Shown one piece after another: positions 20,456-44,391 of a stretch of 50,828 nt of DNA. The notes beneath the pieces were generated by a model. The model did no database searches. It was not told the DNA's origin and saw only the letters and a program-made list of their open reading frames with translations. Within the stretch, counting starts at the first letter, position 1. Each line of letters starts with the position of its first letter. Source of the DNA: a phage; the sequence record PZ452605.1; one strand, written 5' to 3'. The translations under genes and the position numbers were made by a program.

Positions 20456-20689
20456 TCACAGACTGCAATCATCGTTTTTAAAGTTATCAACGCTTACCCA
20501 CTGAAAATTAAACGGATAGCCAGCCTTAACCAGCGTCTGATCACCAACTCTTTTAGCGCCAAAAATAGCGACAGAATATTCCATGCCACTATTTTCATAA
20601 GTGGCCGTGCATTCACGTTTAGGCATATTTGCGCAACCAGTCAGGGCAACGGCGGCAATTAAAACTGCGATTAACTTTTTCATCTTCAA
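20456..20689 (-). CDS. cor: small lipoprotein, Cor-like superinfection exclusion candidate
   Basis: 77 aa; signal peptide with lipobox LTGC; sits right after tail fibre genes on opposite strand, as cor does in T1/phi80-type phages. Confidence 0.5.
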   Translation of the reverse strand: MKMKKLIAVLIAAVALTGCANMPKRECTATYENSGMEYSVAIFGAKRVGDQTLVKAGYPFNFQWVSVDNFKNDDCSL

Positions 20690-33948: not shown

Positions 33949-34439
33949 TGAGCATAAAGAACAGGGTAGCGGCGGCGGCCTTTGGCGTTGCGGTTGCCTT
34001 GACTTCTCCACTTCTTGAAGAGATCGAAGGGGTAAGATACAAGCCATACAAAGATATTGCGGGAGTATGGACGGTTTGCGCAGGAATCACCGGACCCGAT
34101 GTTATCCTGGGGAAAACGTACACTAAAAAAGAGTGTGATGCTTTGTTGGCTAAGCATATCCAGGTTGCTAAAAAGGAAGTTGACAAGCAAGTTAAGGTTG
34201 ACATTCCTGATAGTATGCGTGCAGCAATGTACTCATTCACTTACAATGCAGGTGTGGGAGCTTTCAGAAATTCAACAATGCTGAAACTCATCAACCAGGG
34301 GAAATTAAACGAGGCTTGCGATCAGCTTTATCGTTGGACTTATTACCATAACCCAAAAACAGGAAAGCGCGAGAAGTCTAAAGGCTTACTTAACAGGCGC
34401 AAGGTCGAATACAAATATTGCACAATGGATCTGAAATGA
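33948..34439 (+). CDS. SAR endolysin (T4-type lysozyme)
   Basis: Ala/Gly-rich N-terminal signal-anchor-release segment; E-D-T catalytic triad region [16 protein letters not shown]. Confidence 0.75.
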
Positions 34440-34831
34440 TGAAGAAATTTTTAATCGCACCAATCGCAATGGCGGTGATCTTGTCTGGATGTTCAAGCGT
34501 TACGCCACTGACCGGATTAATCGGCAGTAAGCCGGAAATCACAGCACAGGCTGGCGCGGAGAACGTGAAGCAGACAGTTGGCATTACAGCAAAGCAGGAC
34601 TCCAGCACAAAACAGGAAACCACAATAAAGGAATCTGCGGTTGACAAGGTGGACACGTCCATCAAGAAGGATTTCACAACATCAACCATTCAGGCCAATA
34701 CCATCAAGGCAGACAAAATTCAGGTCGTGCAGGGTAATAACGGCAGATGGTACGATCCGGTAATCATATGCGTGGTTGTGTTAATTGTGCTGATTTGTCT
34801 TTACTGGAGAGAAAAGAAAAAGGAGGCTTAA
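34436..34831 (+). CDS. unimolecular spanin (u-spanin)
   Basis: N-terminal lipoprotein signal with lipobox LSGC plus C-terminal transmembrane helix [16 protein letters not shown]; same architecture as T1 gp11. Confidence 0.65.
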
Positions 34832-41689: not shown

Positions 41690-41709
41690 GTTTTAACAAA
41701 AAGTGCTAT
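41690..41709 (-). repeat. intergenic motif copy upstream of first early leftward gene
   Basis: exact 20-mer with no upstream gene; iterons lie just upstream on minus strand. Confidence 0.65.
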
Positions 41710-41740
41710 TTGACGGTTAGCACCAGGATTGCGATCTAAA

Positions 41741-41828
41741 TAATCAAAAGTAATCATTCGTAATCAAATCACGTCAAAATGATGATTGCCTTTGCAAATT
41801 TGATGAGAAAAGTAATCACGTTTAATCA
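41741..41828. repeat. five TAATCA iterons at 10-bp phasing
   Basis: TAATCA at 41741, 41751, 41761, 41813, 41823; in divergent early control region. Confidence 0.6.
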
Positions 41829-42264
41829 TTGGTTGCAGGGGAGATAGTGAAACCTTCCCCTCTTGCCTCACTTTTCCGCCCGGCTGTCAGTGGTTGTTGT
41901 CTTTTGTTCACCCCTGTTACCGATTTCAGGCGGCGTGTTTCCGCGCGGTTTTCCGGTGTAGCGAAAACGGAAAAAACAAAGAAAATCCTCTATAATACAT
42001 TGAAAATAAAGATTATTTATTTATATATATCTATAATGTTTTCTTTTTGTTCTCACTGTTACAGTGCTTTTTGTTGGTTATGGTGTGGTTGTGTGTGGGT
42101 ATATATGGATAGTTGCGCGCGCGGCGGATTGCATATGTATATATACTTTTTCCGGCGGATTGCGTTAACAGCGTGAACAGAAAAATAACAGCCGCGAAAT
42201 CAATAACTTGCGCATGATTTTGTAGTTTTTCGATATTGGTAACGTTTTGAATACAACAAAAACA

Positions 42265-42292
42265 TTGACACGCACCAAATAGCTTTTATAAT
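42265..42292 (+). promoter_or_regulatory. consensus sigma70 promoter (TTGACA-16-TATAAT)
   Basis: perfect -35 and -10 hexamers with 16-nt spacer, 30 nt upstream of ATG 42324. Confidence 0.65.
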
Positions 42293-42323
42293 GCGCCAAC
42301 AGTCAACAACCGGAGGAAAGGAA

Positions 42324-42788
42324 ATGGAACAGAAAACCACTAAGGACTATTGCGATTGGCTTCGCGAGCTTGGTCGCCGCCTGGCTAGTGGAGATATTGA
42401 AGAGTATAAAATGTCACTAATTGACCTTGCCGGAATGTTAAGCGGTGACGACTGCTACAAGATCACGCGCAGTTCATCCTACAGCCGGACCATTATCAAC
42501 CGCGTTCCAGAAGTAAGGGCCGCAGGTCGGGTAAGTATCAAGGTCGAGGAAACGGAAGATGATAAATTTTACGTTTTCCGCATGGTCCGCGAATCGAAAA
42601 GGAAAATCATCACACCCGAAGAATTGCCAGCCATCAAGGCAAGGGCGATCAAAAAGTTTGCCGATCGCTTGCTGGCAGCAATCCCGAATATCGTTGACCT
42701 GGAAGGGGATAAACTGGCTGGAGCTTGTGAGGGCGTAAGCCGCTACCAGGATATGATCCGCGAAATCATCAAAGAGGAAGAGCAATGA
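42324..42788 (+). CDS. hypothetical protein, first gene of early rightward cluster
   Basis: 154 aa from ATG with GGAGG RBS. Confidence 0.45.
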   Translation: MEQKTTKDYCDWLRELGRRLASGDIEEYKMSLIDLAGMLSGDDCYKITRSSSYSRTIINRVPEVRAAGRVSIKVEETEDDKFYVFRMVRESKRKIITPEELPAIKARAIKKFADRLLAAIPNIVDLEGDKLAGACEGVSRYQDMIREIIKEEEQ

Positions 42789-43057
42789 AAAAGGCATTAA
42801 TCAGCGTTTTGGCGGCAATGGCATTCCTGACCGGATGCAAAGAAGATGGCGCGCATGTTGGCAATGTGCAGATGGCTAACCCTGGCGATGACTACAGCGT
42901 AAGGGAGCTATTCACCGCTGACGGTTGCACAGTTTACCGATTCTATGACGATCGCACTGTTTACTTCACCAACTGCAAGGGAACGACTAGCTGGGAAGTG
43001 TCGAAAAGCAATGGCAAAGGCACGAAGACAGAACATATGACCGTCGAAACAAAATAG
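42785..43057 (+). CDS. small lipoprotein (second)
   Basis: 90 aa; signal peptide with lipobox LTGC; two further Cys in mature part. Confidence 0.55.
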   Translation: MKKALISVLAAMAFLTGCKEDGAHVGNVQMANPGDDYSVRELFTADGCTVYRFYDDRTVYFTNCKGTTSWEVSKSNGKGTKTEHMTVETK

Positions 43058-43073
43058 CACTTTTTGTTAAAAC
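43054..43073 (+). repeat. intergenic motif copy, co-directional
   Basis: exact 20-mer containing stop TAG of lipoprotein gene; precedes candidate structured RNA. Confidence 0.65.
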
Positions 43074-43106
43074 TCAAAAGCGATAACCAGGCATAATACA
43101 CACATA

Positions 43107-43262
43107 GACGGGCGGCAAGGATTGCTGCGGGAGAGGAGTAACGCAGGGGCTTGATCGAAGTGTCAGGATTCCCAACCGTGAGGCCAGAACTATCACACTA
43201 GCCACCAGGCAGAACGCTAGATAGGTCACTGAGCTGAGGCTACCGACGAAGTGAAGCCCGTC
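43107..43262 (+). ncRNA. candidate structured RNA / structured 5' leader
   Basis: 155-nt GC-rich ORF-free segment; 7-bp closing helix GACGGGC/GCCCGTC; internal hairpins CTGCG...CGCAG and GCAA-GGA-TTGC. Confidence 0.3.
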
Positions 43263-43299
43263 ACAAAAGATTAAACGATTATTTATGTGAAAGGGGTTA

Positions 43300-43482
43300 A
43301 TGATGGATAAGATCATCAAAATGAGCGAAGTCAAGCCGGGAATGATGGTTAAGTTTGCTGGCAAATATCGCCTAGTGCTGGATAACTGCCGCAAAGAGAA
43401 CATTCTTACCATTCGTGTAAATGGCAAGGCGCAGCTATTCGCCCCTAACGCAGATATTGACGTTGAAGTTAGAATTAAGTAA
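43300..43482 (+). CDS. hypothetical protein
   Basis: 60-aa ORF with GGGG RBS. Confidence 0.35.
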   Translation: MMDKIIKMSEVKPGMMVKFAGKYRLVLDNCRKENILTIRVNGKAQLFAPNADIDVEVRIK

Positions 43483-43497
43483 TTAGGAGGAAACACC

Positions 43498-44391
43498 ATG
43501 TTAAAACTTGCTGACATTAAATTCCCGATCACCTTCGAATCTCGCGGCATTGGTCATTACATTTTTACTGATGAAAAAACATGCCATAAAGTTGATTTGC
43601 ATAGCTACAAGCGTGCTCCATCAGGCATGGAGATTGAACACTTCATTGATGCACATAACAAGCACTACAGCGCACTTAAAGACTATGGCTATGCAATGCC
43701 AGGCTACACATGTTTGCACTACAAGCCATATAAGGGCCAGGTGTTACCAGTGCGCTCACCGGAACGCGCAGAGATTCCGATGGTCAATATGAAAACCTGC
43801 GACTACAAAAAGCTGTGGTGCTTAAGTCTGGACAATATCAAGTATCCGATCACGTTCCACACGACTGGTAAGTCAACGATTCGCTACACATCGCGCGACA
43901 ATGGCGTTTATAGCGATGGCACGAAATCAGAGTTGAAAGTTGATTTCTTTGTTGATGGTCACAATAGATACAATCCACACAACGAAAAAGATAAGGTGTA
44001 CTACGTGGAAGACATTACAAAACACTTATTTGGAGAAACACCATTCGGCGGCGGGAAGACGTCAATTCAGAAAATAATTGGCGAGGAGATCCACAAATCG
44101 GCTAGCGAAATAAAAGCGCCTGGAGGCTGGCGTATTGATAAGAGCGCCTTTGCCAATCAAGAAATCGTAACGCAGGGCGCAATTGAAGACATGCCAGTTG
44201 CAGCCACGCTAAAAGGAGTCCAGCTTGATGATGGTTCATGGTATGAACTAACTGCGAAACCAAAGACGATTGAGATTCATGATGATGCTGTTATCCTTCT
44301 GCTTCACTATGGCAGCGCAAAAAACCGGACTGTTGCGGGTGAGATCAGCATCAAGTGCGGAACGATGGTTAAGTGGAAGGTAAAAGTGTAA
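43498..44391 (+). CDS. hypothetical protein with internal tandem duplication
   Basis: 297 aa; AGGAGG RBS; repeats LADIKFPITFESRG and LDNIKYPITFHTTG. Confidence 0.5.
   Translation: MLKLADIKFPITFESRGIGHYIFTDEKTCHKVDLHSYKRAPSGMEIEHFIDAHNKHYSALKDYGYAMPGYTCLHYKPYKGQVLPVRSPERAEIPMVNMKTCDYKKLWCLSLDNIKYPITFHTTGKSTIRYTSRDNGVYSDGTKSELKVDFFVDGHNRYNPHNEKDKVYYVEDITKHLFGETPFGGGKTSIQKIIGEEIHKSASEIKAPGGWRIDKSAFANQEIVTQGAIEDMPVAATLKGVQLDDGSWYELTAKPKTIEIHDDAVILLLHYGSAKNRTVAGEISIKCGTMVKWKVKV

What the first reader, a model, noticed from the sequence alone, without database searches (positions are those of the whole stretch)
42785..43057. Second small lipoprotein in the early region
A 90-aa lipoprotein (lipobox LTGC, Cys-containing mature domain) is the second gene expressed from the consensus early promoter. 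An early periplasmic or outer-membrane lipoprotein distinct from Cor could be a second exclusion or receptor-masking factor, or an envelope-defence inhibitor.
Basis: inference. Interest (0 to 1): 0.5.

Follow-up and report, generated by a model that had tools for sequence, protein, structure and literature searches.

The report
Widespread early phage lipoprotein (DUF4884)
The 90-codon gene is real and encodes an outer-membrane-type lipoprotein of the uncharacterised DUF4884 family, which many unrelated phages carry as a stand-alone accessory gene; it is not a Cor-like receptor blocker by any test run here, and its role is still untested.

Summary
ORF 42785-43057 (+) encodes a 90-aa protein with a textbook lipoprotein signal (MKK / hydrophobic core / LTGC). 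It is the second gene, joined by an ATGA overlap, behind a perfect 12/12 sigma-70 promoter (42265-42292). The window is a Warwickvirus-like T1-family coliphage. Its true Cor is elsewhere (20456-20683, minus strand) and is unrelated.

Homologues sit in arrays of small genes in very different phages (Escherichia, Serratia, Pseudomonas, Xanthomonas, metagenomic) and in Pseudomonas prophages. No neighbour is conserved across 50 dereplicated loci. Carriage is patchy within Drexlerviridae and is not tied to the terminal receptor.

Best reading: a stand-alone periplasm-facing binding module aimed at a conserved envelope component, most likely for envelope-level exclusion or protection. Receptor masking is disfavoured. 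The function is inferred, not shown. It is ordinary as a sequence and modestly interesting as an experimental target. A covarying structured RNA of about 155 nt lies just downstream.

The parts
42265..42292 (+). Sigma-70 consensus promoter (TTGACA, 16-nt spacer, TATAAT) that drives the two-gene head of the rightward transcription unit
   Evidence: 12 of 12 matches. It is one of only two promoter-like sites in 41700-43600, and a terminator-like hairpin lies upstream at 42054-42066.
42324..42788 (+). First gene of the unit: 154-aa DUF7174 protein of unknown function
   Evidence: PF23796, 173 bits; found in 233 phage records, more than twice as many as the lipoprotein; in TLS, Stevie and Klebsiella K50 it is followed by genes that are not lipoproteins.
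42774..42782 (+). Shine-Dalgarno GAGGAAGAG for the lipoprotein gene; the upstream stop overlaps the start (ATGA at 42785-42788), which suggests translational coupling
   Evidence: Read directly from the sequence. The same overlapping arrangement is annotated in JLBYU07 and XY3.
42785..43057 (+). DUF4884 lipoprotein gene (90 codons plus stop)
   Evidence: Identical proteins are encoded by phages orkinos, swan01, tonn and others.
42785..42835 (+). Signal peptide, residues 1-17 (MKKALISVLAAMAFLTG), predicted to be removed by signal peptidase II
   Evidence: Sequence. The profile of relatives matches the N-termini of known lipoproteins in the PDB, such as TrwH and YfmC.
42827..42838 (+). Lipobox L-T-G-C; Cys18 is the predicted lipidated N-terminus. 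The +2 residue is Lys, not Asp, so outer-membrane sorting is expected under the E. coli rule
   Evidence: C18 is at least 90% conserved in 148 relatives. The sorting rule comes from general knowledge of the Lol pathway.
42839..42901 (+). Linker or tether, residues 19-39; variable across the family
   Evidence: Alignments A1 and A2; model secondary structure.
42902..43051 (+). Conserved beta-sheet domain, residues 40-89: five antiparallel strands. The core is LFTADGCTVYRFYDDRTVYFTNCKG, with C48 and C64 in register across the beta2-beta3 hairpin (predicted disulfide)
   Evidence: pLDDT 89.9; strands 40-45, 48-54, 58-62, 66-75, 80-89. R52 and F53 invariant; L42, F43, G47, C48, Y51, D55, Y60, C64, G77 and K78 at least 90% conserved.

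Best explanation
Shown: a real, conserved gene encodes a bacterial-type lipoprotein precursor of the DUF4884 family. It is the second, overlapping gene behind a perfect host-type promoter at the start of a rightward array of small genes in a Warwickvirus-like T1-family phage.

Inferred from sequence rules: after Sec export, lipidation of Cys18 and signal peptidase II cleavage, the 73-residue mature protein is sorted to the inner leaflet of the outer membrane (Lys at +2). There a linker of about 20 residues holds a 50-residue, probably disulfide-stapled, five-stranded beta-sheet in the periplasm.

Inferred from distribution: it works alone, since no gene partner is conserved. It works on something common to Gram-negative envelopes or to incoming phages in general, not on this phage's own terminal receptor. 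It is a dispensable accessory gene that moves between phage lineages.

Most likely role (a guess ranked first, about 0.3-0.35): an envelope-level exclusion or protection factor. Through its invariant Arg/Lys/aromatic face it would bind a conserved periplasmic or outer-membrane component, such as peptidoglycan or a conserved envelope machine, early in infection. That would make the infected cell refractory to further attack from outside (secondary phage entry or other envelope-crossing agents).

The confidence value given (0.35) refers to this functional reading. Confidence that it is a genuine DUF4884 lipoprotein gene is about 0.9.
For: Gene reality and family:
- PF16225 scores 31.8 bits against a cut-off of 30, and 148 of 148 relatives hit the same family.
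- There are 1878 representatives at E<=1e-3, nearly all 80-120-aa lipoproteins.

Lipoprotein signal.

Expression signals.

Fold:
- Model pLDDT is 89.9.
- C48 and C64 fall in register in the beta2-beta3 hairpin (48+64 = 54+58; derived from the strand limits).
- A second Cys pair (CGKxC) is present in 66 of 112 relatives and absent here.

Stand-alone, mobile accessory gene:
- Homologues lie in arrays of small genes in Serratia MyoSmar, Pseudomonas Dolphis, Xanthomonas X1, a 124-kb phage with T4-type RNA ligase, a 71-kb queuosine phage and Pseudomonas prophages.
- No neighbour family is shared by more than 4 of 50 dereplicated loci.
- It is absent from T1.
- The slot after DUF7174 holds other genes in TLS, Stevie and K50.
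- One natural frameshifted copy exists (P0004).
- It is absent from plasmids (tblastn) and, at DNA level, from E. coli chromosomes.

Independence from the receptor: a homologue is present in JeanPiccard, an LptD-dependent phage (PMC8594841; hit H78), and in this Cor-carrying phage.
Against: There is no functional evidence of any kind.
- No paper in the searched library assigns a role to DUF4884.
- No structural analogue exists to borrow a mechanism from.
- The invariant core could reflect folding constraints of a very small domain rather than a conserved ligand.
- Known exclusion lipoproteins (Cor, Llp) are receptor-specific and lie next to receptor-binding genes, unlike this gene, so the precedent is only loose.
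- Lipidation, localisation, the disulfide and early timing are all predictions.
Confidence: 0.35

Rival explanations
1. A second receptor-masking exclusion lipoprotein of the Cor/Llp type. It would bind the periplasmic face of this phage's own (or a competitor's) outer-membrane receptor and inactivate it.
For: It is an early, small, outer-membrane-type lipoprotein in a family of phages that use such proteins (Cor in this window; background in PMC13164509).
Confidence: 0.07
2. A counter-defence factor. It would neutralise a host immunity component that senses or acts in the envelope, such as a periplasmic or lipoprotein sensor or a membrane-anchored abortive-infection system.
For: It sits in accessory-gene arrays where anti-restriction-type genes occur; a Lar-like gene lies immediately downstream in one homologous locus and a faint Lar-like match lies in another. 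Carriage among close relatives is patchy, as for many anti-defence genes.
Against: It matches no PADLOC model. No defence system with a periplasmic target is conserved from enterobacteria to Bacteroidota-like hosts. There is no co-variation with any known system, and no literature support.
Confidence: 0.12
3. A modulator of host envelope physiology. It would bind peptidoglycan, a lytic transglycosylase, or the Tol-Pal, Lol, Bam or Lpt machinery to stabilise or re-tune the envelope during infection, for example to prevent premature lysis or vesiculation.
For: These targets are conserved across all Gram-negative hosts, which fits the invariant core. The conserved face is rich in aromatic residues plus Arg and Lys (F43, Y51, R52, F53, Y60, K78), as in many glycan- or protein-binding sheets (inference).
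Confidence: 0.15
4. A lysis or egress accessory: spanin-like, a lysis-timing factor, or a factor that stops progeny from adsorbing to debris.
For: Outer-membrane lipoproteins are classic lysis components (o- and u-spanins). The window's own u-spanin is a lipoprotein (34439-34831).
Against: The gene lies about 8 kb from the lysis cassette, behind an early-type promoter. It has no C-terminal membrane anchor and is not embedded in another gene. A complete u-spanin is already present. Homologues in other phages are not next to lysis genes either.
Confidence: 0.06
5. A chance ORF or non-functional remnant.
For: It is short, and one frameshifted relative exists (P0004).
Against: The profile finds 1878 related cluster representatives with conserved lipobox and core. 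The protein is 100% identical across several independently isolated phages. It has a good Shine-Dalgarno and start-stop overlap and yields a confident fold.
Confidence: 0.01

Closest known systems
Pfam PF16225 (DUF4884), PHROG 6360 / 902
   Same: Direct member: it scores above the Pfam gathering threshold, shares the core motif, and has the same size and lipoprotein architecture.
   Different: Nothing, but the family has no assigned function. The only experimental mention found is a Bacteroides thetaiotaomicron member (BT_3183) listed among fucosylated glycoproteins (PMC8931616).
Cor (phage T1 / phi80 / N15 exclusion lipoprotein; NCBIfam NF047972)
   Same: A small phage-encoded lipoprotein with a similar signal peptide, in the same phage family and likely in the same compartment.
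   Different: There is no sequence relationship beyond the signal peptide. The genomic position differs (Cor sits after the tail-tip / receptor-binding genes). Cor is receptor-specific and variable, whereas DUF4884 has an invariant core across hosts.
Llp of phage T5 (FhuA-blocking lipoprotein, PDB 8A60)
   Same: An early, small, Cys-containing outer-membrane lipoprotein that acts from the periplasmic side (from the literature: van den Berg et al. 2022, as cited in PMC13164509).
T4 Spackle (periplasmic inhibitor of the incoming tail lysozyme)
   Same: An early, exported, receptor-independent exclusion factor. It is the closest conceptual precedent for a generic periplasmic block (PMC7677548, listed).
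   Different: Spackle is soluble and helical. This protein is lipid-anchored and all-beta, and there is no sequence or fold similarity.
Spanins (lambda Rz1 o-spanin; T1 gp11 u-spanin)
   Same: Phage outer-membrane lipoproteins.
   Different: It has no lysis-cassette context, no partner or C-terminal transmembrane segment, and an early-type promoter. The window already has its u-spanin at 34439-34831.

Membership tests
Bacterial lipoproteins (Lgt / LspA substrates) | N-terminal signal with a positive n-region, a hydrophobic h-region and a lipobox [LVI][ASTVI][GAS]C within about 35 residues | tested here: met
   MKK / ALISVLAAMAF / LTGC, Cys18. The Cys is kept in at least 90% of 148 relatives.
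Bacterial lipoproteins (Lgt / LspA substrates) | Actual diacylglyceryl modification and signal peptidase II cleavage | not testable with these tools
   Needs globomycin sensitivity, palmitate labelling or mass spectrometry.
Outer-membrane-sorted lipoproteins (Lol pathway, E. coli +2 rule) | No Asp at position +2 after the lipidated Cys | tested here: met
   Mature N-terminus is C-K-E-D. Enterobacterial-phage relatives have K, E or Y at +2. The rule itself is established knowledge; localisation was not measured.
Pfam DUF4884 (PF16225) | HMM score at or above the curated gathering threshold | tested here: met
   31.8 bits against a cut-off of 30, residues 35-64. All 148 aligned relatives hit PF16225.
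Pfam DUF4884 (PF16225) | Conserved core (L-F-x-x-[DE]-G-C-x-V-Y-R-F-x-D ... Y-F-T-x-C) in a protein of about 80-100 aa | tested here: met
   LFTADGCTVYRFYDDRTVYFTNC at residues 42-64.
Cor exclusion lipoproteins (NCBIfam NF047972) | Match to the Cor equivalog model | tested here: not met
   No Cor match at E<=1 for the target. The window's ORF 20459-20683(-) scores 71.8 bits against a cut-off of 31.
Cor / Llp exclusion lipoproteins | Gene placed next to the tail-tip / receptor-binding locus and matched to one receptor | tested here: not met
   The target lies about 22 kb from Cor. Homologues occur in an LptD-dependent phage and in this Cor-carrying phage and in phages of unrelated hosts.
Llp (T5) fold | Structural similarity to solved Llp | tested here: not met
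Spanins (o-spanin / u-spanin) | Location in the lysis cassette, with either an embedded or overlapping i-spanin partner or a C-terminal transmembrane segment | tested here: not met
   It has no C-terminal hydrophobic segment. The lysis-type lipoprotein with a C-terminal transmembrane segment is at 34439-34831.
Pfam Lipoprotein_15 (PF03640, Yx[FWY]xxD repeat) | HMM score at or above the gathering threshold | tested here: not met
   14.6 bits against 24.4. Only 1 of 148 relatives matches at E<=0.01.
Known anti-phage defence components (PADLOC) | Match to any PADLOC model | tested here: not met
   No match at E<=1.

The most novel reading that the evidence does not exclude
DUF4884 lipoproteins are a widespread, receptor-independent class of phage envelope effectors. 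A single tethered beta-sheet module, exchanged among virulent and temperate phages of many Gram-negative hosts, would bind one universally conserved periplasmic or outer-membrane component. That binding would either exclude secondary invaders generically or disarm an envelope-based host response, a mechanism distinct from Cor/Llp receptor plugging and from T4 Imm/Sp.
Probability: 0.3. Interest if true: 0.6.

Novelty: new member of a known kind. Interest (0 to 1): 0.3.

Why it matters
If the family's target were found, about 1,900 sequence clusters of phage lipoproteins would gain a function at once. It could also reveal a conserved weak point of the Gram-negative envelope that phages of many lineages exploit or protect. 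For phage therapy and cocktail design, a generic envelope-level exclusion factor would matter because it would affect co-infection by unrelated phages. As it stands, the gene is a catalogued hypothetical protein and a well-defined, cheap experimental target, not a surprise.

Tried and rejected
- Sequence search of the PDB with the single protein gave only WD40-repeat hits in which no individual stretch was significant; these are summed weak beta-hairpin matches. The profile search matched only lipoprotein signal peptides.
- The AFDB50 fold library was unavailable. BFVD returned only other DUF4884 or 'lipoprotein' entries.
- A functional partnership with the upstream DUF7174 gene was rejected as obligatory. 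The pairing is seen only in Drexlerviridae, and DUF7174 often occurs without the lipoprotein.
- A link to Lipoprotein_15 / COG4315 was rejected.
- Longer 'fusion' relatives (130-300 aa) carry no additional Pfam domain and look like upstream over-extensions of gene calls or read-through. One 306-aa protein has five tandem copies of the core.
- Literature searches for DUF4884, DUF7174, Warwickvirus with lipoprotein, and Drexlerviridae exclusion lipoproteins found no functional data.
- The genome scan for bacterial copies used only one strict peptide pattern and mostly returned Pseudomonas. The one locus inspected (L016) is prophage-like, so host distribution is under-sampled.

Full report
**What the window is**

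The region around the finding is 96-98% identical to Escherichia phages JLBYU07, tunus/XY3, swan01 and other members of Drexlerviridae; Tempevirinae; Warwickvirus. The window is therefore essentially a T1-family virulent coliphage genome.

**Checking the observation**

- ORF 42785..43057 on the plus strand starts with ATG and encodes 90 residues, MKKALISVLAAMAFLTGCKEDGAHVGNVQMANPGDDYSVRELFTADGCTVYRFYDDRTVYFTNCKGTTSWEVSKSNGKGTKTEHMTVETK.
- The N-terminus is a standard lipoprotein signal: MKK, an 11-residue hydrophobic stretch, and the lipobox LTGC with Cys18.
- A lipobox scan of all six frames of the 50.8-kb window finds only three such ORFs:
  - this one;
  - a 75-aa ORF at 20456-20683 (minus strand), which NCBIfam identifies as Cor (71.8 bits against a cut-off of 31);
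  - a 130-aa ORF at 34439-34831 with a C-terminal membrane anchor, the u-spanin type of T1-like phages.
- The first gene behind it (42324-42788) is a DUF7174 protein. Its stop overlaps the lipoprotein start (ATGA), and a GAGGAAGAG ribosome-binding site lies 2 nt upstream of the start.
'Early' is an inference from the host-type promoter and from synteny: in Rtp and T1 the equivalent first genes lie about 540 bp from the left genome end, and in T1 they lie inside the terminal repeat.

**What the protein is**

- It scores just above the Pfam gathering threshold for DUF4884 (31.8 against 30 bits) and matches two PHROGs of unknown function.
- A word-indexed search found 23 relatives.
- A profile of these, run against 1.84 billion cluster representatives, found 1878 proteins at E<=1e-3 and 867 at E<=1e-10.
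- Almost all are 78-120 residues long with a lipobox ahead of the conserved core.
- All 148 aligned relatives hit PF16225, and no other family recurs.
- In the 148-sequence alignment, R52 and F53 are invariant. C18, L42, F43, G47, C48, Y51, D55, Y60, C64, G77 and K78 are at least 90% conserved.
- Many relatives carry a second Cys pair (CGKxC). This phage's protein has N and T at those positions, and it belongs to the two-Cys subclass: 40 of the 112 scored relatives have two mature Cys and 66 have four.

**Structure**

- With the shallow alignment the model was poor (pLDDT 67.5). With 148 sequences it became confident (pLDDT 89.9, pTM 0.68).
- The model shows the signal helix, a linker, and five antiparallel strands (40-45, 48-54, 58-62, 66-75, 80-89).
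- Given the beta2-turn-beta3 limits, residues 48 and 64 are cross-strand partners (48+64 = 54+58). The two conserved Cys are thus placed to form a disulfide that closes that hairpin. This is a deduction from the model, not a measurement.
- Foldseek against viral predicted structures returned only other DUF4884 or 'lipoprotein' entries.
- Sequence and profile searches of the PDB matched only lipoprotein signal peptides, or gave spurious summed WD40 hits.
- There is therefore no solved analogue from which to borrow a mechanism. In particular there is no similarity to Llp, Spackle or the lysozyme inhibitors.

**Where the family occurs**

- In the GenBank phage set, 119 records encode a relative. 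They include:
  - Warwickvirus and other Drexlerviridae, among them Rtp (gene rtp3) and the BASEL phages PeterMerian, JakobBernoulli and JeanPiccard;
  - Serratia myoviruses (MyoSmar, MTx), Erwinia and Pantoea phages, Pseudomonas phage Dolphis and the 200-kb Xanthomonas phage X1.
- Metagenomic homologues lie in a 124-kb contig with a T4-type RNA ligase, in a 71-kb contig with queuosine-pathway genes, and in others.
- Ten bacterial genome loci, nine Pseudomonas and one deltaproteobacterial MAG, carry it. The one I inspected (L016) looks like a prophage, with a DNA methyltransferase and an AlpA-like regulator beside the gene.
- Several viral-contig copies have lipoboxes and linkers typical of Bacteroidota-like hosts.
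- It was not found in 72,556 plasmids (tblastn) or, at DNA level, in 5,426 E. coli genomes.

**Neighbours**

- I called ORFs in 93 loci, dereplicated them to 50 groups by target identity, and clustered all neighbouring ORFs.
- Apart from antisense shadow ORFs of the gene itself, no family is shared by more than 4 of the 50 groups. DUF7174 accompanies it in 3 groups, all Drexlerviridae.
- Conversely, DUF7174 occurs in 233 phage records, about twice as many as the lipoprotein.
- In TLS, Stevie and Klebsiella K50 phages the gene after DUF7174 is not a lipoprotein.
- T1 itself has no DUF4884 gene. The only weak profile hit in T1 is the signal peptide of Cor.
- One natural frameshifted copy exists (P0004).
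- The gene is therefore a stand-alone, dispensable, horizontally mobile accessory gene.

**What this says about function**

- Receptor masking of the Cor/Llp kind is disfavoured:
  - the protein is unrelated to Cor;
  - it is not next to the receptor-binding locus;
  - it is present both in this Cor-carrying phage and in JeanPiccard, whose terminal receptor is LptD (PMC8594841);
  - its core is almost invariant in phages whose hosts share no receptor.
- The combination of features points to a small binding module directed at something common to Gram-negative envelopes, or to invaders in general. Those features are a stand-alone gene, an outer-membrane tether with a linker of about 20 residues, a tiny disulfide-stapled sheet, and a conserved face rich in aromatics with an invariant Arg and a conserved Lys.
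- By analogy with what early exported phage proteins are known to do (Cor, Llp, Spackle), I rank envelope-level exclusion or protection first, at about one chance in three.
- Modulation of envelope physiology, counter-defence and lysis-related roles follow.
- None of these was testable here, and no paper in the searched library reports a function for DUF4884. The only experimental mention is a Bacteroides member found among fucosylated glycoproteins.

**Novelty and verdict**

- Identical proteins are already deposited as 'hypothetical protein' or 'DUF4884 domain-containing protein', and the family is in Pfam.
- This is a new member of a known but uncharacterised kind.
- It is a clean target for a simple expression-and-plating experiment, but nothing about it is anomalous. 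Interest 0.3.

**Side finding**

- The 240-nt gap after the gene is not empty. About 155 nt (43106-43262, plus strand) are conserved in unannotated intergenic DNA of 261 phage records, including unrelated siphoviruses (Dhillonvirus HK578/EP23/SO-1, Klebsiella IME279, Serratia MQ-4).
- Two invariant blocks, GGAGAGGAGCAACGCAGGGGC...CAGGATTCCCAACCGTGA and GAGGCYACCGACGAAG, flank a three-tier stem.
  - Its middle helix has at least seven different complementary sequence pairs.
  - Its apical hairpin switches between GCC/GGC, CCC/GGG and CCG/CGG.
- A closing stem also differs in sequence yet stays complementary between groups: GACGGGC/GCCCGTC, GTCG.CAG/CTG.CGAC, GGGCG.CG/CG.CGCCC.
- The downstream genes differ between phages.
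- In HK578 annotated promoters end just upstream of the element.
- There is one copy per genome.
- There is no Rfam, tRNA or tmRNA match.
- It looks like an undescribed structured leader RNA of early transcripts. It deserves its own evaluation.

Noticed in passing
window 43106-43262 (+), in the intergenic gap 43058-43299 just after the lipoprotein gene: A conserved structured RNA candidate of about 155 nt. Invariant blocks (GGAGAGGAGCAACGCAGGGGC..CAGGATTCCCAACCGTGA and GAGGCYACCGACGAAG) flank a closing stem, a three-tier stem and an apical hairpin, all of which show compensatory changes across 22 distinct copies. It is present once per genome in 261 phage records, including unrelated Dhillonvirus, Sortsnevirus and Serratia phages. 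It always lies in unannotated DNA just downstream of -10-like hexamers and upstream of unrelated genes. There is no Rfam 15, tRNA or tmRNA match. It may be a put-like antiterminator leader or a phage small RNA; this is pure speculation.
   Followed up: partly
window 43058-43105 versus L002 (phage XY3) 1214-1712: In tunus/XY3-type relatives a 463-bp insertion carrying two 61-aa ORFs sits exactly between the lipoprotein stop and the conserved RNA element. This marks a module boundary or recombination hot spot.
   Followed up: no
window 42324-42788 (+): The first gene of the unit is a DUF7174 protein, conserved as the first left-end gene in 233 phage records (Rtp rtp1, TLS gp01, Klebsiella, Citrobacter and Salmonella phages). 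No function is known and no paper in the searched library mentions it.
   Followed up: partly
window 20456-20683 (-) and 34439-34831 (+): These are the other two lipoprotein genes of the window: a bona fide Cor homologue (NF047972, 71.8 bits) and a u-spanin-type lipoprotein with a C-terminal membrane anchor.
   Followed up: partly
GenBank records MG0656xx ('Campylobacter phage E6, C4, A139, A120 ...'), hits H86-H88, H125: Records labelled as Campylobacter jejuni phages of about 47-50 kb carry DUF7174, DUF4884 and the RNA element typical of E. coli Drexlerviridae. The host labels are probably wrong, or the lysates were contaminated.
   Followed up: no
protein P0162 (306 aa, metagenomic): One relative contains five tandem copies of the DUF4884 core behind a single lipobox, showing that the module can be arrayed as repeats.
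   Followed up: no
protein P0004 (84 aa, 46-kb contig): This is a natural frameshift variant of the Warwickvirus lipoprotein: identical to residue 40 except for two substitutions, then out of frame. It is consistent with the gene being dispensable.
   Followed up: no
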